DNA of 20,210 bases from Acaryochloris sp. IP29b_bin.137. GTDB lineage: Bacteria > Cyanobacteriota > Cyanobacteriia > Thermosynechococcales > Thermosynechococcaceae. The stretch spans positions 1-20,210 of the forward strand of contig NZ_JANQOP010000042.1 in assembly GCF_028285745.1 (NCBI RefSeq), read 5' to 3'. The notes below the pieces were generated by a model. The model saw nothing but the letters and a program-made list of their open reading frames with translations. It did not search any database and was not told where the DNA came from. The position numbers were made by a program, and so were the translations under genes. Below, piece after piece: positions 189 through 18,683 of the stretch. Within the stretch, counting starts at the first letter, position 1. Each line of letters starts with the position of its first letter.

Positions 189-3100
189 TCACCAAGGCAA
201 ACGACCGGAATGATACCCTCCATGTCGTTCTCGTTCGACTTCTAAGCGCTGACGCAGGACATGATAGATCTCCCTTGCTAGGATTTCGAAATTTTGCTCG
301 TCTACTTCAGATTCGGTGGGCTGTTCTGTTTGGAACTGGCGCATCACCACTTCGGTGGTTGGAGGAGTGGAAGAGACCGGAGGCGTTGCAGATACCTTTT
401 GCACGGTTTGGGTCCGCTGGATGGGAGCAGGTTTTCGTTGGACTTGCTTCTCAGGATAAATTCCAGTGGGGGTGAGGACTAAATCTGATGTAGTTACAGA
501 CGCTGGAGAGGGCGATTTTGTTTTACGTTGGACGATTTTAGGTGATTGTGGTTGAGCTGTGAATAGATCTTCGATACTAGACCAACTTGAAGGGAGTGCC
601 TGGTCTGAACGACTATTTGAGCGCTGTATTGCGGGCGCGATCGCACCCTCTACACCTACCTCCAAAGTATCCTCAAAACTTGCCACATCTCCAGAAACAG
701 AGACTAGATCTGGTGGAGCATCTAGACTTGGGAAATGGCTGGGTGCCTGGGATTGGCGCTTAGGTTTACTGGTAGGCAAAAGGCTACTCAGGTGCTTAGG
801 AGAAACCAAGTTATCTGAAATGCTGGACAAGGGCGAGGGAGCCTGGCCGTTCGCCAGTAGCTGAGCAACGGTTAGATCTGGGGAGTTTCCTTCAGATAGA
901 TCTGATTCAGGGGGTTTAGCCGCTAACTCAATAACTCGTCGTTGAGGAGAATCTGTAGAATCCGACGAAGTATGTTCTTCTTCTATCTCCTGATGGGCTC
1001 CATCAGGAGTGGCTTCTGCTTGGCGCTGAACTATTGGTTGATTTAGTTCTAATGATTGCGACTTAGTTGAAGTGAGAGGGGGACCAATATGATCTGCTGT
1101 GGAAGCCTGAATATTTGAATCAGCACTTACTTGAGGAACTTCTGCAACCTCGGATTTTTGTGCAGTATCAGGAGATGATTCTGTATGAGTAAGGCCAGGA
1201 CCTGCTTCTGTCAAGGAAGCGTTGTTTTCCAACTTTGGTTGAAGAGGTTGATTCTGGTTTAGGTCGGAGGATGGACTTGACGATAGCTCTGGAGCGGGCG
1301 GGTTAGTCGTTCCACTATTCTCTTCGGGGAGCTGAGCTGAAATTTCTATCACCCGACGATGGGAAGAATCTATCTTGTCCGGTTGAGGCTGGATGCTTTC
1401 TGATACTTGAGGGGATGAATCAGCAATATTTTCAGTTGTAAGTTGTTGTAATTCTGGAGTTTCTGTGTCAGAAATATTCGGATGGGTTGGGGCATTGGAA
1501 TTAACCTGATCCGAATTGTTTGAACTTGAGGTGGATAGGGTCGAATCGGACTTTGTATTGGGCTGATGAGTAGATTGAATGATTCCTGACTCTTCTGAAA
1601 TATCGGTAGGAGCCGCATTAGGGGTGTGAGATTCCTCTACTGTTGAGGATTGAATGACGGGGGCTAATTCAGACAGATCAACGGAAGGTGTGACGGTTGG
1701 TGGAGTTTGCGACGAAATCTGTGGTGCAATTTGCTGTGGTTCGGATGGCTCAGTTGATTGGGAAAGTTGGCTATCTGAGGTGGGTTGTATGGAGAGATTA
1801 TCTTCAGCTTTTGAAGTTGATGCTTGAATGCGATCGCTCTCATCAAACGATTGACCAGAGATCGCTTGCTGAGGCTGTGATTCAGCCTTGGGTTGAACCA
1901 CGGAAATCTCAACAGTTTGAATTGGAACATTAGAAGTTGGCTTAGATGCCAGATTTGATTCTTCTGTGGTTGATTCTGACGGCGCAGAAGGATCTTCTAA
2001 TTCAGGAGTTTCAGAGGCTTTTAGCTGAGTGTTTTCTGGTTCGCTAGTCTCAGTACTCAGCTGAATAATGTCGTTCGTCCCGGCGGTATTTATACTCGCG
2101 CTATCGCTTGTATTTAGGGGCGCAATATTATCTGCAGTGTCTGAGGCAGAATTAGGGCTTTGAGGAGAAGCAATATTCGTATCATCGGCTATAGCAGGCG
2201 ATGAAATCGTTTCAGAAACGTTCTTCTCGGTCAGATCTACTTTGGCTTGAATCGTAGGAGAAGGATGATCTTCCTGAATGTCGAAGTCTTGCCCTCCATC
2301 TGGGAATGTTTTGTTATGAGTACTATCCAGATTGTGGCCAGACGTTTGGGTTAATGAGTCGCTTACATTGTCGAAATTGGGTCTGAAGGTTTGAACTAGG
2401 GATGTTGAGGGATCAACTCCTAAACCACTAACCTCGATCTCAGAAATCTCATTAGCATCATTGAACTTACTCTCACTGGAAAGCTGGTTTTGTTCTGCCC
2501 TAGAGTGCTGGGCAGATGAATGGGGGTTAGGTGTGAGCTGCTGTTGAGGTTGAATCGGGTGAGTTGTTGATGGATATTCAACCTTAGTCTGAATAGAAAT
2601 TTCACCAATGGGCGGACATTCTGGAGATGTTGATGCTGTTGCCGGGACAGTTTGTTCTAGTGAATGTTGAATATCAGAGTCTGGTAGAGAAGGTGTAGAT
2701 TGATCTTGAGTAATGTGCTGTGGGGATAGGCTATCTTGATCGGCGGATGGGTTGGCTAGTGGAGTCTGAGTATCGGATATTCCTAAATCCTCTTGAGGGA
2801 TTTTTTGCGCCTGGACAGGTAGTACAGTTTGAGGATGCGTATTTGAGACGGTGGAACCTGTTGATTGTTTTATTGAATCATCAACGGGCTGTGATGTTTG
2901 TGGATGAGATGTGGCTTGATGTTGGATTGGGTCTCCTTCACTACCCGTACTTGGATTAGCGGCTGCTTGCGCTGATACTTCACCTTGAGAAACGTAATCT
3001 TTCTGAGAAGCAAGTCGCCTCTCATTTGAAGTAGACGGAGAAGGAAGTTCTGCTTTTCTCTGAATATTGGGTTCGTTGGCATAGCTTGAACTCTCTATGT

Positions 3101-6100
3101 CTGGGGGATTAGAGTCGGTTCCTTCAGCAGAGATGGGCTGTGGTTGGATAAATTCTGATGTGTGTGAATTCAGCTCAGCGGAGCTATCAACTAAGGGTGA
3201 AGGAAGATCAGATGCAAGATTTTCTGATTTTGGGGAGTCAACAGTGGCTGATGGTTCGATTCTTGGAGGTTGGTCTGAGACCATCTCATTCTGCACCGGA
3301 CCTGCATCATCCTTTTCACTAATATGCTGACTTTGTACTGCTATATCTCCCGTATTGGGTGATGCTTGTGTCTGAACAGTTGGTGGTTTTGAGATTTCTG
3401 GCTGATCCGTAGATTGAGAGATTTGATCTGGTACAGAATTTGAGGCAGGGGGGATTGAAGGGGTTGACGTCTTCTCGCTGGATAGTTGGGCTGGAGATGT
3501 TGACTTCTGTTTTTTTGTCTTGCGTTTGGACTTCGCCTTTTTAGGGCGCAAATTCGCTAGCTGCTGAACAATGGTTGTTCCTATTTTTGAAATAGGGGAA
3601 TTGAGGGGATTGTTGCGATCGCGACTTTGAGACGATTCAGAGATTACAATACTTTGATGGTCTGGACTCACAGACGTTAATTCAGAGCTATTTTGAGACT
3701 TCTGGATAGAGTTCTTATTTTGCGATCGCAACGTCGCATCACTTTGTTCTGAATCTTGTTGTGGCGTCTTAACCTCTGCTTCATCAATAGAGTTAGTTTG
3801 AATCGGAGGCACTGCGTTTACTTCTGCTAGATTATTATCTTCGTCTAGTGAAGGCGTAACGACAGAGTTTCCACCAGTTTGCTCCAGACTTTCTATTGCA
3901 GAGTTAGATAGAGGAGCGAGTTGTACTGGATCAGTCTCTAAGGTTTGCTCCTTACCTGAGTTCGGCTCAGCAGAAGCCTGAATATTATCTTCATTAGACT
4001 CAGAAACATCTGCAGGTTGTATGGATAGGTTGGTCTCTGCAACACCGAGGGATTGAGTTGGTTCAACCGAACTCGCTTCCTTCGCTGACTTAGGCTTCGA
4101 CAATGGATCTTGTGAAATTTGTCTTCGTATCGACCGATTAACCCTCTCTTTAATTTTTGATCCTAGATTGACGAGTTCATCTGCGACTTGATTCTGAAGT
4201 GCTTGCCACTCAGGTTTAACCACATTGGATTGTGATTCTGATTTCGAAAGAGAGGCTGGTATCTGCTTTTCCTGAGTCGAGGGTTCCCTAGAGCGACTCG
4301 GAGCGGATATTTTCTCAGGTTGAAGAGGCACAGATCCTAAAGGTGGGGATTCTGCTGTCTGCGAAATGGGAAATGATTGAGTTTGGAGATTTTCTTCGGT
4401 TGTTTTCTGAATAGGAAGATTGGCTAGACCCTCTTGGCTCCCTTGAACGCTAGCACTGGGTGAAGACTGTGAACTAAGATCTGCATCCGGTGCTGAAGGT
4501 TGGGCCTGAGTGCCTGGCAGTGCCGAACCTGCTGTGATGTCATTAGAGTTTTTGTTATTACCAGGTGTGGGTTGTTGGGGGTGTTTGCCTTCAGCTATCG
4601 TTCTTTGAGATGGGACAGTTCCACTGGTGTGTTCTGCACTAATCTGCGCTGATGCGCTGGATGGGGTTTGTTGAGGGATAGCACCCTCATCAGGATGAGG
4701 CTCAATCTGGCGACTGACGGTATCCACAACCTGCTTACTGAAGCTGGTCAGCCGTTGCAGGGGTTGTGTTGGGAATTGTCTTCGCTTTTTTGACTTAGCT
4801 CGAGAAGAACTAGCCCCAGGACTAGAAACTATATCACTAGCCTTTTTCTGCTCTGCACTGGACTGCGATGCTGATGATTCAGATTCAATTTGATTTTGTC
4901 TAGTACCCTTGGAATTAGGGATAGGCTCAGACACCTCTGTGATGTCAGAGTTTGAGTCAGGATGTTTGTCTCGCTGAATTGTTGGCTCTGATATCTGCGT
5001 TTGTATTGGCGTAGAGGAAGGATGCTCTTGGGAGGAGTCATCTGATTCAGGGATTGCTTGAACAGTTGAAGCATTCTGTTGATGGTTGACAACCTCAGCT
5101 GCCTTTGGAAGCGTTTTTTCTGGAGAAGCTGTTTGCTCTGAGGCCTGCGTTTCGCTTTGGATTAGAGATAATTCCGGAGATGATTGTTTTGAGTCTGGAG
5201 ATGATGCGGCTGGAAGCGATGGAGTATTGGACGGTTGGAGTTGAGGGGAATTACTCGTGGAGCCTCTTTGCCTTGCCTTAGTTTCTGATTTGCCGATGGG
5301 GAGAGAGTCCGAAGCCTGCTTGAGCTGCTTACCAACCTTGTTAATATCCTGTTTAGCCCGTTCCCCCGCTCGCAAGAGCTGAGTTTGCAAGGGAATCTTT
5401 TTCTGTTTGCTTTTTTTGCTCTGTTTCTTCTGTTTTGTAGCAGATGTTTCAGTTGATGCCTGAGGAGAATGACTGTCTGATCTTTGGAGAATTTTTTCTT
5501 GTATCGCCTCCCTATCTGCCTTAATCGAAGAGCTAAGTGTAGAGGGATTCTCTGTTATTGAGGGTTCATGACTAGAACTAGTTTGTTTAGTCTCTACCGT
5601 TGGTGTAAGTGGGGTATCAGTAGTTGTCTGAGCCGTAGAACTCTCTTTTCTTTGAACACTTGTTGTCTCGATTGGTCTCCCGCTAGTCTGGGTTAGATCG
5701 TTAGGTGTCTTGTAACTCTCCTCCTGTAAAGGTTGATCATCAGGTGATTGTTGAGTGAAGGGTTGGGCAACTCTTTGGACAGTTGTCGGCTCTGTTGATT
5801 TCTCGTTGATTTGGACTGGAGTGCTGGGTGTTGCAGTATTTTCGATTGGTAGGCCATTGCTAACCGGGATGCTTGGATTAGTCTCTACTCTTGGGTTGGC
5901 GTGAGGAGACTGTGAGTTACTCGTTTGCTGATGGTTAGAAGGACTAGGAGATGACTTTACCGTCTGATTAATAGGCAAATCTGTGGTTTTGTCAGTCGAT
6001 CCTTCTGACGGTATAGAGACCCCATCCTCTTTGTTGGCAGCAGGGACATCTTGTGACTTTTGACTCGAAACGGATGGAGACTTTGCAAGTTGTATTTCAG

Positions 6101-7397
6101 AAACTTGCTGTTCCTGGTTTGGAGCAGGCAGAGGCGCTTGGCTCGAAGCTGACAGAAACTGTGCGCCAGAGACTTGCTGTTCCAGGCGATTAGGATTGTG
6201 TTCAGAACGTGGAACTTCTGGGGCTGATACTTCTTTGTTTTGGCCAACCAATTCTTTTGGCTTAGATTGAGCTACAGAAGTATCGTTGAAAGATGAAGCT
6301 TCTGGGTAGCTGGGTTGAAGGTGACCAGAGGTCTCTGAGTCTTTGATTGAAGGTGAATCAGAATGAGTGGGTTTAACAAGAGGCAGGGATTCTTGGTTAG
6401 GAGGCTTTACGTCTGAGTTTCTATGAGTTGCCTGTTCTCGATGATTAGAGGGGCTCTCTTGAATTGTGGGGAGCACAGAATCAGTATTGTCCAGAGGTTT
6501 CGCCTGAAGGGGCGATACTTCTGGTGGATGGGCAAAAGGACTTACTTCCTTAGAGCCTTCGGGGGGAGGATGGGCGATTGATTGTTGCTTAGTTTGGTCT
6601 GATTTTTGTTTGGACTCCTGATTAGGTTGCTCTGAAACCACCGCTGATGCTTGATAGCCTGAAGCATTTTCTGTTGGGGAGGGAACTGAGAAATTTGTAG
6701 ACTCTTGAGACTGAGGTTCAGTAGCTGGAAAGCCAAGTTCAGGAGCTTGGATCTGTTTGGGTTGAAGAGCATCATTAGGACCGCTTTGATCTGGATCAGT
6801 CTGCCTGACTGACTCAGCCTGATCAGAATGGGGGCTGGAAGACTGTGGAGAGATCGGATGCTCAGATGGAGGTTGAGCTGGGGAAGTTACTAGGGATTGG
6901 TCATCATTTAGAGCTGAACTAACCTTACTGGATGGCGACTGTTCTAATTCTGTTGCCGGAGCTGCATTGCTGGGGCTTATATCGGCATTGTTTGCAGTTG
7001 GTGGCTGTTCCTGATGGGCTGAAACTGACTCTGGTGGGGGTTGAAGCCTCTCGACGGATGCTTTTGGCATAAGAGCTTTGGGCTGTGCAGCTTCAGGAAA
7101 CTGGATTCCGACGGATGGAGAAATATGGGTATGACCTGAAAAGCTGTCGTCAATTATTTCCGTTGGCCCTTGAGCAGAGAAACGGTTATAAAGAGTATTT
7201 TCCCTGTCTTTTTCACCTGTTAGAGAAGTATCCAAATTGATTAGAGATACTGCACCTAAGGGAGACAGAGTATGAGGTTGGAGAAATGATTGTCCCAGCG
7301 CAGGGGGAGGTAGCAATGGATGCCTAAGACCAAGCGAGTCTGAGGAAGGAATCTCTTCCGGTAGGGATTGGTGACCTTGGCCTGAATTGATATCCAT
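189..7397 (-). CDS. Giant (2,402 aa) S/P/Q/T/E-rich, predicted intrinsically disordered protein in the tape-measure slot of a CIS/phage-tail-like operon, with a short conserved C-terminal amphipathic RER tail
   Basis: An uninterrupted 7.2-kb ORF cannot plausibly arise by chance. ATG at 7397..7395, TGA at 191..189. It lies between the tube gene (12 nt upstream) and the initiator-like gene (29 nt downstream). By eye it has 1 Cys, about 3 Trp, no signal peptide, no TM segment and no recognisable catalytic motif. It contains 4 HIP1 sites (637, 1830, 3615, 3722). The functional label comes from synteny only. Confidence 0.9.
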   Translation of the reverse strand: MDINSGQGHQSLPEEIPSSDSLGLRHPLLPPPALGQSFLQPHTLSPLGAVSLINLDTSLTGEKDRENTLYNRFSAQGPTEIIDDSFSGHTHISPSVGIQFPEAAQPKALMPKASVERLQPPPESVSAHQEQPPTANNADISPSNAAPATELEQSPSSKVSSALNDDQSLVTSPAQPPSEHPISPQSSSPHSDQAESVRQTDPDQSGPNDALQPKQIQAPELGFPATEPQSQESTNFSVPSPTENASGYQASAVVSEQPNQESKQKSDQTKQQSIAHPPPEGSKEVSPFAHPPEVSPLQAKPLDNTDSVLPTIQESPSNHREQATHRNSDVKPPNQESLPLVKPTHSDSPSIKDSETSGHLQPSYPEASSFNDTSVAQSKPKELVGQNKEVSAPEVPRSEHNPNRLEQQVSGAQFLSASSQAPLPAPNQEQQVSEIQLAKSPSVSSQKSQDVPAANKEDGVSIPSEGSTDKTTDLPINQTVKSSPSPSNHQQTSNSQSPHANPRVETNPSIPVSNGLPIENTATPSTPVQINEKSTEPTTVQRVAQPFTQQSPDDQPLQEESYKTPNDLTQTSGRPIETTSVQRKESSTAQTTTDTPLTPTVETKQTSSSHEPSITENPSTLSSSIKADREAIQEKILQRSDSHSPQASTETSATKQKKQSKKSKQKKIPLQTQLLRAGERAKQDINKVGKQLKQASDSLPIGKSETKARQRGSTSNSPQLQPSNTPSLPAASSPDSKQSSPELSLIQSETQASEQTASPEKTLPKAAEVVNHQQNASTVQAIPESDDSSQEHPSSTPIQTQISEPTIQRDKHPDSNSDITEVSEPIPNSKGTRQNQIESESSASQSSAEQKKASDIVSSPGASSSRAKSKKRRQFPTQPLQRLTSFSKQVVDTVSRQIEPHPDEGAIPQQTPSSASAQISAEHTSGTVPSQRTIAEGKHPQQPTPGNNKNSNDITAGSALPGTQAQPSAPDADLSSQSSPSASVQGSQEGLANLPIQKTTEENLQTQSFPISQTAESPPLGSVPLQPEKISAPSRSREPSTQEKQIPASLSKSESQSNVVKPEWQALQNQVADELVNLGSKIKERVNRSIRRQISQDPLSKPKSAKEASSVEPTQSLGVAETNLSIQPADVSESNEDNIQASAEPNSGKEQTLETDPVQLAPLSNSAIESLEQTGGNSVVTPSLDEDNNLAEVNAVPPIQTNSIDEAEVKTPQQDSEQSDATLRSQNKNSIQKSQNSSELTSVSPDHQSIVISESSQSRDRNNPLNSPISKIGTTIVQQLANLRPKKAKSKRKTKKQKSTSPAQLSSEKTSTPSIPPASNSVPDQISQSTDQPEISKPPTVQTQASPNTGDIAVQSQHISEKDDAGPVQNEMVSDQPPRIEPSATVDSPKSENLASDLPSPLVDSSAELNSHTSEFIQPQPISAEGTDSNPPDIESSSYANEPNIQRKAELPSPSTSNERRLASQKDYVSQGEVSAQAAANPSTGSEGDPIQHQATSHPQTSQPVDDSIKQSTGSTVSNTHPQTVLPVQAQKIPQEDLGISDTQTPLANPSADQDSLSPQHITQDQSTPSLPDSDIQHSLEQTVPATASTSPECPPIGEISIQTKVEYPSTTHPIQPQQQLTPNPHSSAQHSRAEQNQLSSESKFNDANEISEIEVSGLGVDPSTSLVQTFRPNFDNVSDSLTQTSGHNLDSTHNKTFPDGGQDFDIQEDHPSPTIQAKVDLTEKNVSETISSPAIADDTNIASPQSPNSASDTADNIAPLNTSDSASINTAGTNDIIQLSTETSEPENTQLKASETPELEDPSAPSESTTEESNLASKPTSNVPIQTVEISVVQPKAESQPQQAISGQSFDESDRIQASTSKAEDNLSIQPTSDSQLSQSTEPSEPQQIAPQISSQTPPTVTPSVDLSELAPVIQSSTVEESHTPNAAPTDISEESGIIQSTHQPNTKSDSTLSTSSSNNSDQVNSNAPTHPNISDTETPELQQLTTENIADSSPQVSESIQPQPDKIDSSHRRVIEISAQLPEENSGTTNPPAPELSSSPSSDLNQNQPLQPKLENNASLTEAGPGLTHTESSPDTAQKSEVAEVPQVSADSNIQASTADHIGPPLTSTKSQSLELNQPIVQRQAEATPDGAHQEIEEEHTSSDSTDSPQRRVIELAAKPPESDLSEGNSPDLTVAQLLANGQAPSPLSSISDNLVSPKHLSSLLPTSKPKRQSQAPSHFPSLDAPPDLVSVSGDVASFEDTLEVGVEGAIAPAIQRSNSRSDQALPSSWSSIEDLFTAQPQSPKIVQRKTKSPSPASVTTSDLVLTPTGIYPEKQVQRKPAPIQRTQTVQKVSATPPVSSTPPTTEVVMRQFQTEQPTESEVDEQNFEILAREIYHVLRQRLEVERERHGGYHSGRLPW

Positions 7398-7409
7398 AAA
7401 CTTTGCAAG

Positions 7410-7973
7410 TTAGTTACTGGGGTAAAATCCTCCGGCATTCGTATCTCTGCCTTTTAAGAAGGTGGCCCCACCGCCTGCATTACTGCTGGGTTGCAGATTG
7501 GCAACAACTTTTAGACCTTCATAGGCCAGGGTGAGTTCTTCGATCGCAACGGTGGATGCATCCGCTTGGAGGGATGGCGCTTGCCAACCCACGGGAACGG
7601 CACCAATTAAGGTCCAGGTCTGTATCGTTTCTCCCGCTTGATTAAATAGGAGAATGTTGATATTACGACGCTGAGGATTGACATTGCGATCGCTGGGCTC
7701 TAGCTGGGTGAGCATCCGACTGGCCCATCCCCAAAACACCAGATCATTGGTGATCCCCCGTTTGAGGGTGACATCGGAGAATTCGGTTTGGCCGAGGATA
7801 ATCCGCTGTTGGTTGTTAACACCACCTTCAAAGTAGGTGTCATGCTTAATTTTGGCGCTTAACCCTGAACATTCGCTAAAGCAAGCACTGATATAGCTCT
7901 TCTCTTGGATCTCGACATAAAAGCGGTTGGCGGTGACATAGTTGAGGTTATGGGTTTCGCTGTTGCTGGCCAC
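7410..7973 (-). CDS. Phage-tail/CIS inner tube protein (T4 gp19-like, TIGR02241/PF06841 type; Afp1/Afp5/Pvc1/Cis1-like) with a roughly 32-aa Gly/Ser/Asn-rich C-terminal extension
   Basis: The translation shows the family hallmarks: ANRFYVEI..., FSECSGL, YFEGG, FSDVTLKRG, LVFWGW, INILLFNQAGE, TW.L....P..W, VAIEELTLAYEGL. GTG start at 7973..7971 overlaps the upstream stop (TAGTG). TAA stop at 7412..7410. Confidence 0.85.
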   Translation of the reverse strand: MASNSETHNLNYVTANRFYVEIQEKSYISACFSECSGLSAKIKHDTYFEGGVNNQQRIILGQTEFSDVTLKRGITNDLVFWGWASRMLTQLEPSDRNVNPQRRNINILLFNQAGETIQTWTLIGAVPVGWQAPSLQADASTVAIEELTLAYEGLKVVANLQPSSNAGGGATFLKGRDTNAGGFYPSN

Positions 7974-8428
7974 TAATATCGCCCCCCATAGTTCTGCTGC
8001 CGCTCACGCTGATATTGCAAGTCGTTTTGCATCAGTTCATAAATACGATCGCACAATTTCGATTGCGCCAGGGGATCTTGCAAAACTTGAGACGCGAGTT
8101 GCATAACCGCTTGACGCTCTGGAGGACTAACGGATAACTCTAAATAACGATATCCAGCAGGGGGTGGACCGATTCCCCACTGACCTCTCTGTCCTTGATC
8201 CCCTTGGTTCATCTGCCTAAATCCCCATAAGACATTCTGTCCATCCATAGCCAACCCATCAGCAATATTGGGGTCGGGGGACCGCTTATTACTGTATGGC
8301 TCTACCGGAGCTGTCGAAAGTAGACCAAAGTCTAACTTGTCAAGTTGCTCTTCTGTATGCCAGGAATGAACGCATACAAAATTGTAATTTTGGCTTTCCT
8401 GGAGCATAGGAAAACTCAAAGGGGTCAA
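7973..8428 (-). CDS. Hypothetical 151-aa protein, first gene of the tube operon; its C-terminal tail resembles the C-terminus of the giant protein
   Basis: The ORF-track start at 8428 is TTG. An ATG alternative lies at 8407..8405 (MLQESQNY...). Its stop TAG (7975..7973) overlaps the tube GTG by 1 nt, which suggests translational coupling. I recognise no domain. The C-terminus is LCDRIYELMQNDLQYQRERQQNYGGRY. Confidence 0.6.
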   Translation of the reverse strand: MTPLSFPMLQESQNYNFVCVHSWHTEEQLDKLDFGLLSTAPVEPYSNKRSPDPNIADGLAMDGQNVLWGFRQMNQGDQGQRGQWGIGPPPAGYRYLELSVSPPERQAVMQLASQVLQDPLAQSKLCDRIYELMQNDLQYQRERQQNYGGRY

Positions 8429-8938
8429 TCAGTCCTTTTCGCCATCGGCTACCCATGGGTAAATTTTCAGAAATCAAGGTGATTTTGAGGATAAATACCG
8501 CGTATTTAGCAGTTGCCCCCCGAAAAATGGCTTAGCTTAATAATTTTTTACAGAATTAAATTTCGATTACTGAATAATTCTTTAATGAAATCTGAATCCT
8601 TAAATTTTTTCCTTGTAATCCCTTGAAGCTCTTTTTCCGCAAGCATTCTGAGGCGATCGTTTTTTGCTCACCTATGAGACTTAGCCCCATTTAATATTGC
8701 TCGCCGAACCACAATTTTTAAAAAAAACCTGAAATCCAGAGGTTATCAAGGTTTGGTCGATCTATTTTTAGCAAATAGCAATTAAAATATTCCATTAAAA
8801 TATCGTGGCTGCGACATTTCAGCCTGTTAGGTTGTAAAAAGGCTCTAGAAAAATTGCGTAATTTTATAGGGTTTAGTCAAAATCAGCAGACTCGAGTATT
8901 TTTTGCTTACGCTTAATTAAACAAATAGGAGTCAATCA
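8429..8938. promoter_or_regulatory. 510-bp AT-rich divergent intergenic region, presumed to hold promoters for the minus-strand tube operon and plus-strand hup
   Basis: It lies between divergently oriented start codons. It has long A/T tracts (for example aatttttaaaaaaaa near 8714..8731) and a tandem 10-bp direct repeat at 8781..8803. I could not assign -35/-10 pairs confidently. Confidence 0.4.
8927..8931 (+). promoter_or_regulatory. Shine-Dalgarno sequence (AGGAG) for hup
   Basis: AGGAG lies 7 nt upstream of the ATG at 8939. Confidence 0.6.
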
Positions 8939-9220
8939 ATGAATAAAGGAGAACTCGTTGACGCTGTAGCTGATAAGGCAAGTGTCACGAAAAAGCAGGC
9001 GGATGCAGTTCTTTCTGCTGCCTTAGAGGCCATTGTTGAAACCGTCTCTTCTGGGGAAAAAGTCACCTTGGTGGGATTTGGCTCATTTGAACCTCGCGAA
9101 CGTAAAGCCCGTGAGGGTCGCAATCCCAAAACCGGTGCAAAAATGAAGATTCCCGCAACTAAGGTTCCAGCTTTCTCTGCAGGTAAGCTATTCAAGGAAA
9201 AAGTTGCCCCTAAAAAGTAA
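8939..9220 (+). CDS. hup: HU family nucleoid-associated DNA-binding protein
   Basis: 93 aa. MNKGELVDAVA..., GFGSFEPRERKAREGRNPKTG..IPA.KVPAFSAGK is the canonical HU/IHF fold signature. A good RBS is present. Confidence 0.95.
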   Translation: MNKGELVDAVADKASVTKKQADAVLSAALEAIVETVSSGEKVTLVGFGSFEPRERKAREGRNPKTGAKMKIPATKVPAFSAGKLFKEKVAPKK

Positions 9221-9258
9221 TTCTCTTAACCATCTGAATTCTGTATGAGGCGTAACAT

Positions 9259-10362
9259 TTGAATCGCCCTATACATGGGGGCAACCTGGCATGGGCTGCA
9301 GACTTAGCAGGTTGCTCTCCTCACTCCATTCTTGATTTCTCGGCCAGTATTAACCCGCTGGGGCCACCGCAAACTGCGATCTCAGCCGTCCAAGCCCACC
9401 TTGATACCCTAACCACCTATCCTGATCCAAGCTGTAAGGCTATCTGTCAGACATTAAGCCGCATTCATCAACTGCCGATGAATTGGTTTCTGCCTGGCAA
9501 TGGATCTGCAGAGTTACTAACCTGGGCCTGTCGCGACCTTGCCCAGTTGCCTGCAACGGCGATGGTCACGCCAGCGTTTGCCGATTATCGAAGAGCGTTA
9601 AACGCATTTCAAGCTCAAATTCGTTCGTTTTCGCTGGACTTTAAAGCAGGCCAGAACGATTCCCTACCCGGTTTGATGGATCAAGTCTTGACTTCGATTG
9701 GTCAGTCTACTGAAATCTCTGAGTCAGGCCTATTGCTGAATAATCCTCACAATCCAACCGGACAGATCCTATCCCTCAATCAAACAGAGCGCCTACTTAA
9801 CCAATTTGCATGGGTTGTGGTGGATGAAGCCTTTATGGATTTTGTCCCATCTCAGGATCAGTTCAGCCTGATTCCTAAAATACAAGATTTTCCAAATCTC
9901 ATCATCTTGCGCTCTTTGACCAAGTTTTATAGTCTCCCAGGTTTACGCTTGGGCTATGCCGTGGGTCATCCCGACCATCTGCAGCGATGGCAGCAGTGGC
10001 GTGATCCCTGGTCGGTGAATTCTCTGGCTATGGCGGCTGGCGTGGCTGTTTTAGAAGATCATGCTTTTCAAACACAAACGATGCATTGGTTACCCCATGC
10101 CCGCTCTCAGCTTATGACAGGGTTAATAGAGCGGGGATTTCGCCCCTATCAAAGTGCTGCAAATTTTTTATTGGTTGCCACAGATGTTTCAGTGCCGTCC
10201 CTACAAGAAGTCCTGTTAAAACATCATCAGATTCTGATTCGGGATTGCCTGAGTTTCCCGGAGTTGGGAGAGCACTTCTTTCGCGTTGCGGTGCGAACGC
10301 CTGAGGAAAATCAGCGGTTGCTCAATGCTTTGGCGCACTGCATGCCAAGCATATCTGTATAA
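9259..10362 (+). CDS. cobD: Threonine-phosphate decarboxylase (CobD-type class I/II PLP aminotransferase fold; cobalamin biosynthesis)
   Basis: The N-terminal HGGN...ILDFSASINPLGPP, NPHNPTG, and SLTKFYSLPGLRLGY (PLP lysine) are typical of CobD or histidinol-phosphate-aminotransferase-like enzymes. The ORF-track start is TTG, and the upstream ATG at 9245 hits a stop. Confidence 0.75.
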   Translation: MNRPIHGGNLAWAADLAGCSPHSILDFSASINPLGPPQTAISAVQAHLDTLTTYPDPSCKAICQTLSRIHQLPMNWFLPGNGSAELLTWACRDLAQLPATAMVTPAFADYRRALNAFQAQIRSFSLDFKAGQNDSLPGLMDQVLTSIGQSTEISESGLLLNNPHNPTGQILSLNQTERLLNQFAWVVVDEAFMDFVPSQDQFSLIPKIQDFPNLIILRSLTKFYSLPGLRLGYAVGHPDHLQRWQQWRDPWSVNSLAMAAGVAVLEDHAFQTQTMHWLPHARSQLMTGLIERGFRPYQSAANFLLVATDVSVPSLQEVLLKHHQILIRDCLSFPELGEHFFRVAVRTPEENQRLLNALAHCMPSISV

Positions 10363-10394
10363 CATTGATAGAACGGGATCATCTGGAATAAGGT

Positions 10395-11702
10395 ATGGCG
10401 GTTGATTACGATTTAGTGGTGGTGGGAAATAATACCGCGGCCCGTTTTGCTGCGATCGCAGCAAAAGAACGTTCAGCGCGGGTTGCCTTTATTTCCGTCG
10501 CGCCGGAAGTGATTCCCCATCATTTATTTTTGAATCAATGGAGCCAGACCCGACCTCATCAATGTTCCCTAAAAGCATGGGCTGAGGCCAGGACAATGAC
10601 CTGGCAAGCGCCGCATTCTCCTGCTCAGTTGGCTAACTTGGGCATTGAGCAAATTAATGGAGCAGTCCAGTTTCGAAAGGAACCTCAGCTTCAGGTACAT
10701 GTTCAAGATCGGGTGTTGCGATCGCGCCGCTATCTGCTTTGCCTTGATGCCGATCAATGTCCTCCCACTATTCCAGGTGTGCAGACAGAGGATTGGATTT
10801 TCCCCGCCAATATTATTGAATATTTAGACAATCTAGCCCCTTCTCTGTCACACCCTATTCTGGTTGTGGGAGGGGGGCCAATCTCGACCATTCTCTGCCA
10901 AGCCATTGCCCGTCTCGGATATCCAGTTACTTTGCTCTGCGAACATCCCCATATTCTGCCTTGGGAAGATCCAGAGGCTGCCGCTCGGATCCAAGCCCAT
11001 TTGGAGGCAGATGGCGTTCAGATCTTTTCCCGTTGTCAAATTAAAGAAGTAATTCCGAAATCCCAGTCCTTCTATCAAGTCGTGACGAATTATGGTGAAC
11101 TGACCGTAGATAGGTTAGTTTGGGCAGCAGAACCTTTATCATCAGCGATTCATCCCAGCCGGATGGATGTTGAACTTCAGCACCGTTCCCAAGGACTATG
11201 GGTCAACCCTCAACTCCAGACGTCTTCTTCTCAAATTTATGCCTGTGGTTCAGTCTTAGGGGGGTATACCCTTGCTGATATTACTCACCACGAAGCCTTA
11301 GTGGCGGTTAGAAATGTCTTGTCAAAACGGCAGACGACGGTGGATTATCGACTCGTGCCCTGGTCAATTCAAACCGCTCCAGCGCTAGCAAGGGTCGGGT
11401 TGACAGAACAACAAGCCCAACAACAGCAGCTATCCTTTCGAGTAGTATATCCTTCCCTTCTCAATACGCCCACAGGTCGGCTCCAAAATCTGACGGCAGG
11501 CTGGAGTAAGTTGATTGTCCAAGCGGATGGACAGATTCTAGGCGCCCATGTGATTGGTCCGACTGCTGCAGAAATTATTTATGGGGTTACGATCGCGATC
11601 CAACAGCGTTGCCCAATCTCCAAATTAGCGGATGGGGCCGCTTTTAGCTCAAGTTACAGCAGCATAATCGGTCAAGTCGCTTGTCAGTGGTCCAATCGGT
11701 AG
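10395..11702 (+). CDS. Pyridine nucleotide-disulfide oxidoreductase family protein (dihydrolipoamide dehydrogenase/mercuric reductase-like fold), apparently degenerate
   Basis: The two-dinucleotide-fold layout is present: DLVVVGNNTAA at the N-terminus, ILVVGGGPIS in the middle, IYACGSV, and the C-terminal dimerisation-type region VPWSIQTAPALARVGLTE. The canonical CxxxxC near aa 40-50 is not visible, and neither is the C-terminal HP...E dyad. Confidence 0.7.
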   Translation: MAVDYDLVVVGNNTAARFAAIAAKERSARVAFISVAPEVIPHHLFLNQWSQTRPHQCSLKAWAEARTMTWQAPHSPAQLANLGIEQINGAVQFRKEPQLQVHVQDRVLRSRRYLLCLDADQCPPTIPGVQTEDWIFPANIIEYLDNLAPSLSHPILVVGGGPISTILCQAIARLGYPVTLLCEHPHILPWEDPEAAARIQAHLEADGVQIFSRCQIKEVIPKSQSFYQVVTNYGELTVDRLVWAAEPLSSAIHPSRMDVELQHRSQGLWVNPQLQTSSSQIYACGSVLGGYTLADITHHEALVAVRNVLSKRQTTVDYRLVPWSIQTAPALARVGLTEQQAQQQQLSFRVVYPSLLNTPTGRLQNLTAGWSKLIVQADGQILGAHVIGPTAAEIIYGVTIAIQQRCPISKLADGAAFSSSYSSIIGQVACQWSNR

Positions 11703-11716
11703 CCTAACCTTATGGT

Positions 11717-12724
11717 TTAAACCGACTGAGGGGCTTGTCCCATCGTTTCGCGACCGTGGGGAGCCGATAAACGGGTAATATCTGGTCCAGCGGGGATAAT
11801 TCCGCCAGGATTCAAGGGGAATAGGGTGCCATAATAGCTTTGCTTAACGGCGTCTAGATTACAGGTATCTGCCACGCCGGGAAGTTGATACAAATCATGC
11901 AGATAAGCTCCTAAATGGGGGTAGTCTTGAATTCGTCTGCGATTGCACTTAAACAAGCCGTAGTAGGCTACATCAAAACGGAACAGGGTGGGAAACAGGC
12001 GAACATCGGCTAGGGTAAGGGAATCGCCGCAAAGGTAGCGGTGATTGGCCAAGACTTGATCCAGCTCATCCAACACTTGGAAGAGTTCGTTCACCGCTTG
12101 ATCATAGGCGGCTTGGGTTTGAGCAAAGCCACAACGATAGACTCCATTATTGACCGCATGATAGATTTTCTCGTTCCACTGGTCGATCTGGCGACGTAAC
12201 GATTCTGGATAAAGGTCTAGTTCTGGCTGCTGGGCCACAGCATTAAAGGCTGAATTGAGAATCAGAATAATTTCCGAGCTTTCGTTATTGACAATCCTTT
12301 GGGTCTGAGTATCCCAAAGGACTGGAACGGTGCAGCGCCCCTCATAACTGGGTTGGGCAAGGTGATAGAGATCCCTGAGACTGTTGCACCCCTGATGTTG
12401 GGAGACAAAGACCCACCCTCCGTCGGTTGCTGACGGCTGAACGACCACAACATCAATAACGTCTTGGAGACCCTTCAAGGCCCGAACCACTAGGGTTCGA
12501 TGGGCCCAGGGACAACCTAATCCCACGTATAGCCTATATCGCCGATTCTCAGCAGGAAAAGCAGACTCGGGACCTGCAATGGTTTGTCGAAATTGGCTAT
12601 CAGGACGAACATAGGCTCCTTCCTTGCTGCGAGGGGCCATATTCGACATCATTAGATTCCACAGGGTGGTCCAAGCAAATTTTCCCAGTCCAATAATGGC
12701 TTTCGGTGGCAGAGATTTACCCAT
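11717..12724 (-). CDS. Xi-class glutathione S-transferase / glutathionyl-hydroquinone reductase (YqjG/ECM4-like)
   Basis: Supported by the CPWAHR active-site motif (LYVGLGCPWAHRTLV), VRPDSQFRQTI, TVPVLWD, and a C-terminal GST helical domain. Length is 335 aa. Confidence 0.85.
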   Translation of the reverse strand: MGKSLPPKAIIGLGKFAWTTLWNLMMSNMAPRSKEGAYVRPDSQFRQTIAGPESAFPAENRRYRLYVGLGCPWAHRTLVVRALKGLQDVIDVVVVQPSATDGGWVFVSQHQGCNSLRDLYHLAQPSYEGRCTVPVLWDTQTQRIVNNESSEIILILNSAFNAVAQQPELDLYPESLRRQIDQWNEKIYHAVNNGVYRCGFAQTQAAYDQAVNELFQVLDELDQVLANHRYLCGDSLTLADVRLFPTLFRFDVAYYGLFKCNRRRIQDYPHLGAYLHDLYQLPGVADTCNLDAVKQSYYGTLFPLNPGGIIPAGPDITRLSAPHGRETMGQAPQSV

Positions 12725-13063
12725 GGCGATCTCCTTCAGTCACTCAAGGATTACCTTTAGCTTTGATATTAACCGAGGGTATCAATAGCCCTAAGACCTT
12801 CCCCTATCGTCAATACCCCATTGATGACTAGCCTAAAGGTTTCAGCTAGCGGATTGAAGACCAAGGACAAAATAGTAGCTCCCGGAGAACCATTGCATTA
12901 TTGTCCTTTCCAAGACGCAATAAAGGTGAAATGATCTTTAGCTTCGCTTGGTTGGCTAAATTTGTCTACTAGAGTAAGAAGTGCAGTTTGCTTCATCTAT
13001 CGTCTTCAGGATTTCGCTGTTTGAAGCTTTGATGGTTATCCCCTCTCAACCCCGGATAAGAAC

Positions 13064-13441
13064 ATGCGTGGACTTGTTTTAACCCTACTTGCAACAGCTC
13101 TCAGCCTATTAGTGGTCGATTTCGTGTTTGCAGGCGTTGAGATTGCCAACTTTCCTGTTGCGATCGCAGCAGCCATATCGATTGGTATTGTCAATGCCAT
13201 AGTTAAACCGATCCTCACCATTCTCTCGTTTCCCCTAACCTTGTTAACCCTGGGAGGATTCTTATTAGTCCTGAATGGGATCTGTTTTTCTCTGGCATCC
13301 GTATTTGTGCAAGGCTTTCAAGTGCATGGTTTACTAGCATTCTTGTTGGGGCCAATTTTGCTCTCGTTGACCAACGCATTCTTGAATCGGTACTTGATCA
13401 CAGATACGCCTTCTCAAGGGACGGATGGGGAGCGCTCCTAA
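13064..13441 (+). CDS. Small four-TM membrane protein, phage holin family IV / DUF360 (YvlD-like)
   Basis: 125 aa, highly hydrophobic. The NAIVKPILTILSFPLTLLTLGGFLLVLNG pattern matches my memory of PF04020 proteins. Confidence 0.6.
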   Translation: MRGLVLTLLATALSLLVVDFVFAGVEIANFPVAIAAAISIGIVNAIVKPILTILSFPLTLLTLGGFLLVLNGICFSLASVFVQGFQVHGLLAFLLGPILLSLTNAFLNRYLITDTPSQGTDGERS

Positions 13442-13482
13442 TAACGAGGTCTTGCTTGGAACCCTGACTCTGCTGGCCCCTA

Positions 13483-13773
13483 TTAGCCTGCGATTAAATC
13501 TCGTGTCAGTACTTCAAGGGGAGGATGGATGGCCACCTTCACTTTCAACGGACAGCATAATTCTTTCCGAGATTGAGCCAGTTCTCGAATCAACAGCAGC
13601 CGGGATTGAAGATATGCTTTGGTATTGGCTTCCTCGCTAGTAGGCAGCAAGTTGCGCTCTTTAAGATTAGTGAGCAAGACTTGAACCAGTTGTTTGTCAT
13701 TGAGTTGTGTGAGGACATCGGTCTGAGTCGTTTCAATCACTTCCCAAACTTGTCGGAGACGATTGGAATTCAT
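13483..13773 (-). CDS. Hypothetical small protein (96 aa from ATG 13773; the longest ORF extends to 13911)
   Basis: MNSNRLRQVWEVIETTQTDVLTQLNDKQLVQVLL... looks protein-like. The 46 codons upstream (13774..13911) are AT-rich and look like promoter DNA. No family recognised. Confidence 0.4.
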   Translation of the reverse strand: MNSNRLRQVWEVIETTQTDVLTQLNDKQLVQVLLTNLKERNLLPTSEEANTKAYLQSRLLLIRELAQSRKELCCPLKVKVAIHPPLEVLTRDLIAG

Positions 13774-14023
13774 TACAGTCACCCTAGGTGAGGGTTTTTC
13801 TTGTCGAAAACTGAGTTTAGAACACGTTTTAATATTTTCTTTATATTTGCTTCCTTCCAATTCTACGCTTATCGTTGAGCAACCCACTGTCAGATCAACC
13901 ACAAAACACATAAATTAACTTGAGCAACATATAAGTTAACTCCTGGGTGCAAAGGATTGCACAAATTGAGGAGTGACGCCTCCGCAAGTGAGAGGGGAGA
14001 TGGGCAGACGGCCATTTGGAGGG

Positions 14024-14521
14024 TTAGATACTTAGAATTCGCCCCAGCCAAGTATCGGCTTTTTGCTGAAGCTGATGCTTGCGTTCCCATCGGCGGAACG
14101 CCTGTTCGTAGGCTTCATCGCCAGTGTGGAAGACATTCCAGGCATTAAGTCCCAGTCGGAGTCCCCACAACAGGGCAATATAGAGGGACCAGGGGAACGA
14201 AAATCCCATTAAGGCATTGACTAAGATGAGACTGGAATTTGCGATCGCATATCGTCCGGCTTTCTTGCGTAAATTGGCCCGACGGTACTGATCGAAGCTT
14301 TGCCGCCTAGCCAGCTCGCTTTGCTGAGTTTTGACGTTCTGAATGGCTTGGTCTAGCGTGGGCTGGGGGATGCCAAGTTCTTCAGCAATTTCGAGAAGTT
14401 GGGCATGGGAAAACTCGCCATCGTAGTCTTGTTGCGCGATCGCAAGGTTTAATATTTGCTGAACTTGCTCTTGGCTGTAGGTCAATGTGGCTTTTGAGGG
14501 GTTAATGGCCATTCCATACAA
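14024..14521 (-). CDS. 2TM domain-containing membrane protein (cyanobacterial type, with an N-terminal helical soluble region)
   Basis: The N-terminus (YSQEQVQQILNLAIAQQ...LLEIAEELGIP) is followed by a two-helix hydrophobic hairpin (YAIANSSLILVNALMGFSFPWSLYIALLWGLRLGLNAW). The start could be M1 (14521) or M4 (14512). Confidence 0.65.
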   Translation of the reverse strand: MYGMAINPSKATLTYSQEQVQQILNLAIAQQDYDGEFSHAQLLEIAEELGIPQPTLDQAIQNVKTQQSELARRQSFDQYRRANLRKKAGRYAIANSSLILVNALMGFSFPWSLYIALLWGLRLGLNAWNVFHTGDEAYEQAFRRWERKHQLQQKADTWLGRILSI

Positions 14522-14744
14522 TCTCTTGCCTCATTCTAATTATTGCAAATGGGAAAGGATCAACTTCAAGATCTGAGTCGAACGAACCCTAAACCTGTCC
14601 TCAAACCCATCAATCCCAAAAGCGGTGGCTTGAGGGGAGAATCGGCTGGGCGAAAGCTTTGCTGACGTTGGGTATGGAGACAGGCCAACGGGTACGGTAA
14701 TTTCTACAGTTGGGCCCAAGGGACAAGCGGAGGTTAAGCCGCAA

Positions 14745-18577: not shown

Positions 18578-18595
18578 TCGCTAGCTTTTTTGAAA

Positions 18596-18638: not shown

Positions 18639-18683
18639 GAGATTGGACAACCTTGACATCTTTACTTTCAATCAGAGTTGAGG

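What the first reader, a model, noticed from the sequence alone, without database searches (positions are those of the whole stretch)
192..8056. Two proteins in the operon end in the same amphipathic L..IY......L...RER...Y tail
Seen in sequence: the giant protein ends LAREIYHVLRQRLEVERERHGGYHSGRLPW (nt 192..281). The 151-aa protein ends LCDRIYELMQNDLQYQRERQQNYGGRY (nt 7976..8056). Aligned without gaps they share L, IY, L, RER and Y at identical spacing, with similar residues between. The rest of the two proteins is unrelated. Inference: this is a modular C-terminal docking helix. By analogy with tape-measure C-termini, which sit in the hub/spike cavity, it could be the element that plugs a protein into the baseplate or tube lumen. 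The 151-aa protein would then be a second client, either an alternative short ruler or a cargo using the same address tag. From memory, and unverified, similar ...RL..ERER... tails occur on hypothetical proteins in actinobacterial and cyanobacterial CIS loci.
Basis: partly seen in the sequence, partly recalled or inferred. Interest (0 to 1): 0.75.

Follow-up and report, generated by a model that had tools for sequence, protein, structure and literature searches.

The report
Shared docking helix in injection-system operon
Two neighbouring genes of a cyanobacterial phage-tail-like injection system end in the same conserved 30-residue helix, which most likely anchors an unrecognised tape-measure-type protein and a small plug-like partner inside the spike end of the tube.

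Summary
On the minus strand, the 2402-aa protein (189..7397) and the small ORF (7973..8428) end in the quoted tails. They flank a Cis5-like tube gene. The pairwise match is marginal (BLASTP E 0.004). But the tail is kept in both gene families in 34 related cyanobacterial loci, and the two tail profiles match each other (hhalign E 6e-8). A tail HMM hits nothing else in 572,000 residues of six-frame ORFs.

An exhaustive profile search finds 835 protein clusters. In nearly all, the tail sits within 5 residues of the C-terminus of disordered proteins in the tape-measure slot. AlphaFold predicts a 29-31-residue helix in both tails. No Pfam, NCBIfam, PHROG or PDB entry covers it.

The "151-aa" protein is really about 79 aa. 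The two classes carry conserved opposite charges at the same helix positions. This argues for pairing, not for two clients sharing one address.

Best reading: a hub/spike-docking helix of a tape-measure-slot protein, plus a plug-like mini-paralogue. The docking site and the pairing are inferred, not shown. Globular proteins or cargo carrying the tail were not found. This is a new variant of known kinds (tape-measure C-terminal anchor, Cis6 plug).

The parts
7973..8212 (-). Small gene, most likely 79 aa. The maximal ORF runs to 8428 (151 aa), but its 5' half is probably not coding.
   Evidence: ORF list. DNA conservation with A. marina begins at ATG 8212. Relatives P0002-P0008 are 71-79 aa. The A. 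marina ORF is 78 codons stop-to-stop. The TAG stop overlaps the GTG start of the tube gene.
7976..8104 (-). Tail module of the small protein: helix, DP kink, long helix. The AF2 long helix, residues 47-75, is 7988..8074.
   Evidence: HMM match to residues 109-151 of the 151-aa ORF, 73 bits. AF2 gives helices 30-45 and 47-75, with pLDDT above 90 over residues 41-70. Translation.
7410..7973 (-). Cis5-like inner-tube / tube-adaptor gene (187 aa) between the two tail-bearing genes.
   Evidence: PF06841 E 2e-36. TIGR02241 E 6.5e-41. NCBIfam CIS5_fam E 1.3e-20, below its cut-off.
189..7397 (-). Giant 2402-aa disordered protein in the tape-measure / Cis6 slot. Composition: 16.6% S, 10.9% P, 10% Q.
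   Evidence: ORF. Composition. No Pfam, NCBIfam or PHROG family. In A. marina its orthologue is followed by CIS_tube (Cis7-like) and VgrG genes.
192..323 (-). Tail module of the giant. The AF2 helix is about 222..314.
   Evidence: HMM match at ORF residues 2363-2403, 46 bits. AF2 of the last 45 aa gives a helix over residues 5-35, pLDDT about 95. Translation.
7242..7340 (-). Conserved N-terminal 'PLG' boxes of the giant (SDSLGLRHPLLPPPALGQSFLQPHTLSPLGAVSL).
   Evidence: The N-termini of big proteins from loci and database hits share (P/S)LG..PLL.P..LGQ...PLG.
552..593 (-). WSSIEDLF box, a second conserved short motif upstream of the tail.
   Evidence: The regex W[SAGL][SNQ][ILV].[ED][LF] is found in 94 of 161 tail-bearing proteins and once in the giant.

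Best explanation
The two tails are homologous copies of one amphipathic alpha-helix of about 30 residues. The consensus is h..LA.E[IV]Y.L[LIV]RQRL..E[RQ]ER.G in the big class and DP.....L[CS]DR[IV][YH].L[LM]..[DE][IL]..Q[RQ]ER in the small class.

The giant belongs to a large, unannotated family of disordered proteins, 239 to over 3000 aa long. They have conserved ends and a hypervariable middle. They occupy the tape-measure slot of this CIS lineage: after the tail-assembly-chaperone-like gene, and before the Cis7-like tube initiator and the VgrG spike.

Its C-terminal helix most likely anchors the chain in the lumen-facing cavity of the initiator/spike complex. Tape-measure C-termini do this in phages and tailocins, and so does the Cis6 plug helix in AFP-like systems.

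The small protein (about 79 aa) has a disordered N-part, a short helix and the tail helix. It is a plug-like mini-paralogue of that anchor, made in step with the Cis5-like tube protein because its stop overlaps that gene's start.

The two classes carry conserved opposite charges at the same helix positions. So they most likely pack against each other in one helical bundle at the hub, rather than competing for one site.

Shown: homology, conservation, synteny, C-terminal position, predicted helices, and the charge swap. Inferred: the docking site, the pairing, and the tape-measure and plug roles.
For: Homology and conservation.

Spread: 835 representative clusters. The tail ends within 5 residues of the C-terminus in 151 of 160.

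Context:
- Small, Cis5-like tube, big, CIS_tube (Cis7-like), VgrG, PAAR, then eCIS_core cargo.
- The gene upstream of the small gene matches PHROG 508 'tail assembly chaperone' at E 7e-7 and 1e-4, followed by DUF6760.
- The same small + big pair occurs in a 63% GC metagenomic lineage.

Helix predictions.

Charge swap across 35 small and 19 big tails, positions counted from the conserved [IV]:
- Position -1: R/K in 35/35 small, E in 16/19 big.
- Position +7: D/E in 35/35 small, R in 19/19 big.
- Position +11: Q in 31/35 small, E in 18/19 big.
- The hydrophobic positions -4, 0, +1, +3, +4, +8, and E/D+13 and R+14, are shared.

Precedents:
- Diffocin tape-measure helices 795-817 intertwine with spike helices. 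The C-terminal 20-35 residues of the phage 80alpha and T5 tape measures are seen as trimers (PMC10996793).
- Alg6/Pvc6/Cis6 plugs are roughly 50-60-residue proteins (Pvc6 is modelled to residue 51, SalCis6 traced to residue 56) whose C-terminal helix (Pvc6 residues 24-51) trimerises in the spike cavity. They are essential for assembly.

Translational coupling of the small and tube genes.
Against: - No structure or interaction data. The docking site and the pairing are inferences.
- The giant is not helical like typical tape measures. It is S/P/Q-rich, and its orthologues differ tenfold in length.
- The small gene lies 5' of cis5, not between cis5 and cis7 as Cis6 does.
- There is no sequence or fold match to any PDB chain or curated family.
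- Tail-bearing tape-measure-slot proteins exist without a small partner gene: Nostoc pn3 L042, Rhodococcus L041, S. clavuligerus L040. So the big tail can work alone.
- In the GC-rich lineage the charge swap is only partial.
- Twenty-three of 161 big proteins carry two tandem tails, which the simple model does not explain.
- The sequences compared are phylogenetically related, so the counts overstate independence.
Confidence: 0.55

Rival explanations
1. Shared address tag. Both proteins use the same helix to bind the same site. The small protein would be an alternative client, such as cargo or a short ruler, that competes with or substitutes for the giant.
For: The tails are homologous and both strictly C-terminal. 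In AlgoCIS the tape measure is absent from mature particles while the plug stays, so replacement at one site is conceivable.
Against: Class-specific conserved charge reversal at helix positions -1, +7 and +11. One binding surface would be expected to select the same charges. Only two classes carry the tail, and no diverse clients were found. Known eCIS loading signals are N-terminal. The small protein is almost nothing but the helix.
Confidence: 0.2
2. Recognition element for an assembly factor rather than for the hub. The C-terminal helix would be bound by the Cis15-type AAA+ ATPase, for extraction or unfolding of the lumen protein, or by the tail assembly chaperone.
For: The tail is at the extreme C-terminus. 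AAA+ ATPase and chaperone-like genes are in the same loci. The AAA+ protein is needed for cargo loading, and the tape measure leaves AlgoCIS particles.
Against: The conserved part is a long amphipathic helix with a fixed hydrophobic face. The last 5-10 residues after it vary. Two-tail proteins keep an internal copy about 70 residues from the end. There is no precedent in the papers read.
Confidence: 0.15
3. Chance or compositional resemblance of two charged amphipathic helices, with no common origin or function.
For: The pairwise BLASTP E is only 0.004 in a reduced search space.
Against: Profile-profile E 6e-8. Conservation in both families in 34 loci. No off-target HMM hits in 572,314 residues of ORFs. 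There are 835 specific hits in 1.84 billion proteins.
Confidence: 0.02

Closest known systems
Cis6 / Afp6 / Pvc6 / Alg6 spike 'plug' of extracellular contractile injection systems
   Same: A very small protein with a disordered or strand N-part followed by one long C-terminal amphipathic helix. The Pvc6 helix spans residues 24-51; here it spans residues 47-75. It is encoded next to the cis5 and cis7 genes of a CIS operon. Known plugs trimerise in the lumen-facing spike cavity and are essential for assembly.
   Different: The small gene lies upstream of the cis5-like gene, not between cis5 and cis7. That slot is taken by the giant, which carries the same helix. There is no detectable sequence or fold similarity to any PDB chain or curated family. 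It has an extra short helix before the DP kink. Whether it forms a trimer is unknown.
C-terminal anchor helices of tail tape measure proteins (diffocin CD1366 residues 795-817; phages 80alpha and T5; Afp14/Cis14-type rulers)
   Same: The gene follows the tail-assembly-chaperone-like gene(s) and precedes the tube initiator and hub. It has a conserved helix of about 30 residues at the very C-terminus. In diffocin these helices form an intertwined bundle with helices of another baseplate protein.
   Different: The body is S/P/Q-rich and disordered, not coiled-coil. Length varies from 239 to over 3000 aa between relatives. It matches no tape-measure family in Pfam, NCBIfam or PHROGs. A separate small gene duplicates the anchor helix with inverted charges.
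Disordered N-terminal loading regions of DUF4157 (eCIS_core) cargo
   Same: The giant shares the repeated short box h-[IV]-Q-R-x with the N-terminal regions of the DUF4157 proteins of related loci.
   Different: The giant and the small protein have no DUF4157 domain. The element under study is C-terminal and helical. Cargo loading signals are N-terminal and disordered. No DUF4157 protein carries the tail.

Membership tests
Cis6/Afp6/Alg6 spike plug (candidate: small protein) | Very small protein, about 50-80 aa | tested here: met
   79 aa from the conserved ATG at 8212. Relatives are 52-79 aa.
Cis6/Afp6/Alg6 spike plug (candidate: small protein) | Unstructured or strand N-part followed by a long C-terminal amphipathic helix | tested here: met
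   AF2: residues 1-29 have low confidence; helices at 30-45 and 47-75 have pLDDT above 90. The hydrophobic positions are conserved.
Cis6/Afp6/Alg6 spike plug (candidate: small protein) | Gene located between cis5 and cis7 | tested here: not met
   The small gene is immediately 5' of the cis5-like gene in the window and in 34 loci. The giant occupies the cis5-cis7 slot.
Cis6/Afp6/Alg6 spike plug (candidate: small protein) | Sequence or fold similarity to known plug proteins | tested here: not met
   The tail profile against all PDB chains gives nothing below E 0.29 and no CIS protein. Foldseek of the model against PDB gives 0 hits. No NCBIfam or Pfam match. Whether the plug chains are present in the PDB copy was not checked one by one.
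Cis6/Afp6/Alg6 spike plug (candidate: small protein) | Trimer inside the gp27-like cavity of the spike; required for particle assembly | not testable with these tools
   Needs multimer modelling, cryo-EM or genetics.
Tail tape measure protein / Cis14 (candidate: giant) | Gene after the tail assembly chaperone gene(s) and before the tube initiator/hub genes | tested here: met
   Related loci have a PHROG 508 chaperone-like gene (E 7e-7, 1e-4), sometimes DUF6760, then small, cis5-like, big, Cis7-like and VgrG. In Acaryochloris the operon starts at the small gene, so the chaperone is not adjacent.
Tail tape measure protein / Cis14 (candidate: giant) | Long, mostly alpha-helical / coiled-coil body | tested here: not met
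   Composition is 16.6% S, 10.9% P, 10% Q and 7.9% T. The median for the family is 52% S/T/P/Q/N/E. This is judged from composition only. No full-length structure prediction was run.
Tail tape measure protein / Cis14 (candidate: giant) | Match to curated tape-measure families | tested here: not met
   No Pfam, NCBIfam or PHROG hit for the whole protein or its ends.
Tail tape measure protein / Cis14 (candidate: giant) | C-terminal helix that anchors on the hub/spike | tested here: inconclusive
   A conserved terminal 31-residue helix is predicted. Its binding site could not be tested.
Tail tape measure protein / Cis14 (candidate: giant) | Protein length sets particle length | not testable with these tools
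   Orthologue lengths run from 239 to 2497 aa in the loci and up to 3170 aa in the database. No particle measurements are available.
   No domain is found. The protein is 79 aa and mostly the helix. The conserved element is C-terminal.

The most novel reading that the evidence does not exclude
The disordered, [IV]QR-box-rich protein that ends in this helix would be the 'missing' tape measure / lumen scaffold of the CIS lineage that includes the cytoplasmic Streptomyces-type systems. Three papers state that those systems have no tape-measure gene, even though their particles are uniform in length. The small gene would be a spike-plug protein that arose by duplication of the tape measure's own C-terminal anchor. 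It would now form a charge-complementary hetero-bundle with that anchor at the hub. This would give both an origin for Cis6-type plugs and a mechanism for starting assembly.
Probability: 0.3. Interest if true: 0.75.

Novelty: new variant of a known kind. Interest (0 to 1): 0.6.

Why it matters
CIS structural papers describe a plug helix in the spike cavity and tape-measure anchors as separate things. For the Streptomyces-type lineage they report no tape-measure gene at all (PMC10066040, PMC12237407, PMC10286715). This finding has three consequences:

- It defines a sequence signature with 835 clusters and no existing family. The signature marks the tape-measure-slot protein in hundreds of cyanobacterial loci, and more weakly in actinobacterial loci.
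- It reveals a conserved mini-gene carrying the same helix with inverted charges.
- It gives a directly testable hypothesis for how the lumen protein is anchored, and for where plug proteins came from.

It also supplies a handle for engineering particle length or lumen content in this lineage: the tail, the charge pair, and the [IV]QR boxes.

Tried and rejected
- Plus-strand reading of the coordinates gives nonsense. The genes are on the minus strand.
- Word-indexed homology searches with the 151-aa ORF and with the giant's last 303 aa found only the protein itself, or nothing.
- Pfam, NCBIfam and PHROGs scans of whole proteins and of tails at E<=10 gave only noise.
- The PDB profile search and Foldseek of the AF2 model found nothing.
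- Idea: the small protein is a miniature of the giant with both ends conserved. Rejected, because hhalign of the N-terminal parts gives probability 0.05%.
- Idea: the small protein is made by a frameshift from the chaperone gene, like lambda G-T. Rejected. Every small ORF has its own ATG near its 5' end. In several loci other genes separate it from the chaperone, and in Acaryochloris there is no chaperone upstream.
- Idea: small and big tails covary at +12 (Q/R). This is not consistent across clades.
- A viral-contig scan with a back-translated strict big-tail pattern gave 0 matches.
- Actinobacterial tails: Rhodococcus scores E 0.009, S. clavuligerus resembles the tail only by eye, and Streptomyces sp. 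YIM 121038 and Deinococcus show none. This is too weak to claim membership.
- The Cis6-position protein of an AFP-like S. clavuligerus cluster (L045 8522-8734) does not match the tail HMM.
Full report
**1. The observation**

Both genes are on the minus strand. Read on the plus strand, the quoted coordinates give nonsense. On the minus strand they give exactly the quoted tails.

The gene order is a small ORF (7973..8428, maximal 151 aa), a 187-aa gene (7410..7973) and a 2402-aa gene (189..7397). The middle gene is a phage-tail tube protein: PF06841 E 2e-36, TIGR02241 E 6.5e-41, and a weaker sub-threshold similarity to NCBIfam CIS5.

The window comes from an Acaryochloris MAG. Its contig ends just after the giant. 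In A. marina MBIC11017 the same three genes are followed by a CIS_tube (Cis7-like) gene and a VgrG spike gene.

**2. Is it more than chance?**

Pairwise BLASTP gives 10/27 identities at E 0.004, in a search space limited to the giant's last 303 residues. That is marginal. Comparative data settle the matter.

- Using the tube protein as an anchor, I fetched 35 cyanobacterial loci.
- In all 34 loci that include upstream DNA, the ORF immediately 5' of the tube gene ends in the tail.
- Nineteen complete ORFs immediately 3' of the tube gene (239-2497 aa) also end in it.
- The apparent exceptions are interrupted or truncated ORFs. In L013 and L029 the tail reappears in the next frame, just before the Cis7-like gene.
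- Profiles built separately from small and big tails match each other: hhalign probability 94.7%, E 6e-8 over 39 columns.
- A tail HMM scanned over all 8731 six-frame ORFs (572,314 residues) of the window and the 35 loci hits only these two genes per locus. The next best score is 7.9 bits.
- An exhaustive profile search of 1.84 billion representative proteins returns 835 proteins at E<=1e-3 and 110 at E<=1e-10.
- Of the 161 sequences I could inspect, 160 carry the tail and one is a repeat-protein false positive. In 151 the tail ends within 5 residues of the C-terminus.

Neither is met.

**3. Corrections to the gene models**

The small protein is almost certainly 79 aa, not 151.

- DNA similarity to A. 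marina starts at the ATG at 8212 and is about 90% over the tail.
- The A. marina ORF is only 78 codons between stops.
- Seven database relatives are 71-79 aa and start MNQGDQ/MSQGNQ.
- Its TAG stop overlaps the GTG start of the tube gene (TAGTG), which suggests coupled translation.

Outside the tails the two proteins are unrelated.

**4. Anatomy of the tail**

AlphaFold2 predicts the small protein as disordered over residues 1-29, a helix at 30-45, a DP kink, and a helix at 47-75 with pLDDT above 90. For the giant's last 45 residues it predicts a single 31-residue helix followed by about 10 non-helical residues.

Positions below are counted from the conserved [IV].

Shared positions:
- Hydrophobic at -4, 0, +1 (Y/H), +3, +4 and +8.
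- The terminal E/D(+13) and R(+14), with R invariant in all 54 sequences.

Class-specific positions:

| Position | Small class | Big class |
|---|---|---|
| -2/-1 | D-R (33/35 D, 34/35 R; R/K 35/35 at -1) | Q/R-E (E in 16/19) |
| +5..+7 | x-[ED]-D (D/E in 35/35 at +7) | R-Q-R (R in 19/19 at +7) |
| +11 | Q (31/35) | E (18/19) |

By simple helical arithmetic (my inference), +7, +11 and +14 continue the stripe formed by -4, 0 and +3/+4. The swapped charges would therefore lie in or next to the packing face. In the database set the big signature (E at -1, R at +7) accounts for 133 tails and the small signature (R, D) for 8.

**5. What the two proteins are**

No curated family covers either protein or the tail. 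Nothing was found in Pfam, NCBIfam or PHROGs down to E 10, and there is no match to any PDB chain.

*The giant.* It is 16.6% S, 10.9% P and 10% Q. Its family has these features:
- conserved N-terminal 'PLG' boxes;
- a hypervariable middle;
- a WSxIxEL box, present in 94 of 161;
- the tail;
- lengths from 239 to 3170 aa.

Twenty-three of 161 carry two tandem tails about 70 residues apart. One such locus (L039) still has the small gene.

*Context.* The fuller loci have this order: AAA+ ATPase, Pvc16_N cap, sheath, tube(s), a 109-150-aa protein, sometimes DUF6760, the small tail protein, the Cis5-like tube, the big tail protein, Cis7-like, VgrG, PAAR, gp25, and baseplate and DUF4157 cargo genes. 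The 109-150-aa protein matches PHROG 508 'tail assembly chaperone' (E 7e-7 and 1e-4).

This order is the tube, chaperone, tape measure, hub order that I recall for phage P2. That recollection was not checked here. The only tool hint is a weak DUF6760 match to Pfam Phage_P2_GpE (E 0.05). The order places the big protein in the tape-measure slot.

*Beyond cyanobacteria.* The same small + big pair is found in a 63% GC metagenomic lineage. There the small protein is 54 aa, ending LAREILALLKRELQLERERSGRA. The big protein is 862 aa, ending LAKQVYPIIKRMLAQERERRHGSG.

Diverged tails without a small gene occur on two plasmids:
- Nostoc plasmid pn3, on the 525-aa protein between the Cis5-like and Cis7 genes (…LADQVYQVIERKIKVERQRRGMF, E 0.006).
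- A Rhodococcus plasmid, just before Cis7 (…LTDRIVDRLDARLVAHRERFGRAF, E 0.009).

In a S. clavuligerus plasmid cluster, an unannotated 1383-codon ORF in the same slot ends …LARRLVAPLSRLLRAELRGDRERVG. That resemblance is visible only by eye.

**6. How it most likely works**

Two kinds of helix are known to occupy the lumen-facing end of the spike.

- *Tape-measure C-termini.* In diffocin, residues 795-817 of three tape-measure chains form an intertwined bundle with spike helices. The C-terminal 20-35 residues of the phage 80alpha and T5 tape measures are seen as trimers (PMC10996793).
- *The Cis6/Afp6/Pvc6/Alg6 plug.* This is a roughly 50-60-residue protein (Pvc6 is modelled to residue 51). It has an N-terminal strand, a flexible loop and a C-terminal amphipathic helix. 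The helix trimerises in the gp27-like cavity, contacts Cis7 and Cis8, and is essential for assembly (PMC8894135; PMC8894136; PMC12546770; PMC13266070).

The giant has the position and terminal helix of a tape-measure anchor. The small protein has the size and architecture of a plug. They share one helix with inverted charges.

I therefore propose that both helices sit together at the initiator/spike cavity. There the small protein would pair with, or cap, the anchor of the lumen protein and nucleate tube assembly.

The steps that are shown are homology, conservation, synteny, terminal position, helicity and the charge swap. The docking site, the pairing, the stoichiometry and the ruler function are inferred. 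I put this model at about 0.55.

**7. Rivals**

It is weakened by the charge reversal, by the absence of any other client class, and by the N-terminal nature of known eCIS loading signals.
- *A recognition element for the AAA+ ATPase or the chaperone* (about 0.15). It fits the terminal position. It fits less well with the long conserved hydrophobic face, the variable last residues and the internal copies in two-tail proteins.
- *Chance.* Excluded.

**8. Against my own model**

- The giant is not helical like canonical tape measures, and its length varies tenfold.
- The small gene is not in the Cis6 slot.
- Tail-bearing big proteins exist without a small gene.
- The charge swap is only partial in the GC-rich lineage.
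- Two-tail variants are unexplained.
- There is no physical evidence.

**9. Novelty**

I found no paper in the library that describes this motif or the small gene. A search for DUF6760 returns no paper. Three Streptomyces CIS papers state that the related clusters lack a tape-measure gene, although the particles are uniformly 268 nm long.

The element combines two known kinds, the tape-measure anchor and the plug, in a new arrangement. It also defines an unannotated family. I rate it a new variant of a known kind, with interest 0.6.

The most novel reading not excluded has two parts. This family would be the missing tape measure / lumen scaffold of that lineage, and plug proteins would have arisen by duplication of its anchor helix (probability about 0.3).

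Noticed in passing
window 189..7397 (-); L030 16606-18150 and 18331-20025; L039 15553-19329; L040 4750-8898: The giant carries 13 short [IVL]Q[RK] boxes, for example EPTIQRDKH, QPIVQRQAE and PKIVQRKTK. The same box is repeated in the disordered N-terminal regions of the DUF4157/eCIS_core cargo proteins of related loci (QQPIQREE, TPLVQREA, NSIQREA). It also occurs 20 times, as xPAVQRxP, in an unannotated 1383-codon ORF in the tape-measure slot of a S. clavuligerus plasmid CIS cluster. A shared lumen- or ATPase-binding motif for the scaffold and the cargo seems possible.
   Followed up: partly
window 7973..8428 (-): The 151-aa ORF (NCBI aa) is over-called. Conservation, relatives and the A. marina stop codon all point to a 79-aa protein starting at ATG 8212. 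Its TAG stop overlaps the GTG start of the tube gene.
   Followed up: yes
P0022-P0032 and others; L039 10001-12613; L013 8043-8897: Twenty-three of 161 tail-bearing big proteins have two tandem tails about 70 residues apart. The first is followed by a conserved G(Y/S)P(I/T)WL box. Locus L039 has the small gene as well, giving three tail helices per locus.
   Followed up: partly
window 7242..7340 (-) and 552..593 (-): Besides the tail, the big-protein family keeps N-terminal (P/S)LG..PLL.P..LGQ...PLG boxes, and a W-S-x-I-x-E-L box (WSSIEDLF in the giant, present in 94 of 161). The middle is hypervariable and repetitive, with lengths from 239 to 3170 aa.
   Followed up: partly
L036 5934-6460; L039 6467-6796; L041 9429-9955; L042 9429-9961: A 109-150-aa protein matching PHROG 508 'tail assembly chaperone' is followed by, or overlaps by 4 nt, a ~50-aa DUF6760 gene. 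DUF6760 has a faint Phage_P2_GpE resemblance (E 0.05). This looks like an E/E'-type chaperone pair upstream of the small gene. No paper in the library mentions DUF6760.
   Followed up: partly
L002, L003, L008, L011, L027, L029, L039 (PBP_like_2); L030, L032-L035 (CHASE2): In many cyanobacterial loci a large periplasmic-binding-like protein (PBP_like_2, about 820-850 aa) or a CHASE2 sensor gene is inserted between the chaperone-like gene and the small tail gene, inside the structural operon.
   Followed up: no
window 8429..20210; L001 1-9700: In Acaryochloris the operon starts at the small gene. Upstream lie unrelated genes, not sheath, tube or chaperone genes, so the CIS genes are split in this genus. 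Other window genes with family hits are a 2TM-domain protein (14024..14521), a Uma2 endonuclease-like protein (14745..15356) and a Phage_holin_4_2 membrane protein (13064..13441).
   Followed up: no
L045 8522-8734: An AFP-like S. clavuligerus plasmid cluster has a 70-aa gene in the true Cis6 slot, between the cis5-like tube gene and the LysM Cis7 gene. It has a strand-like N-part and a C-terminal helix ending …HTRSERRIG. It does not match the tail HMM.
   Followed up: partly
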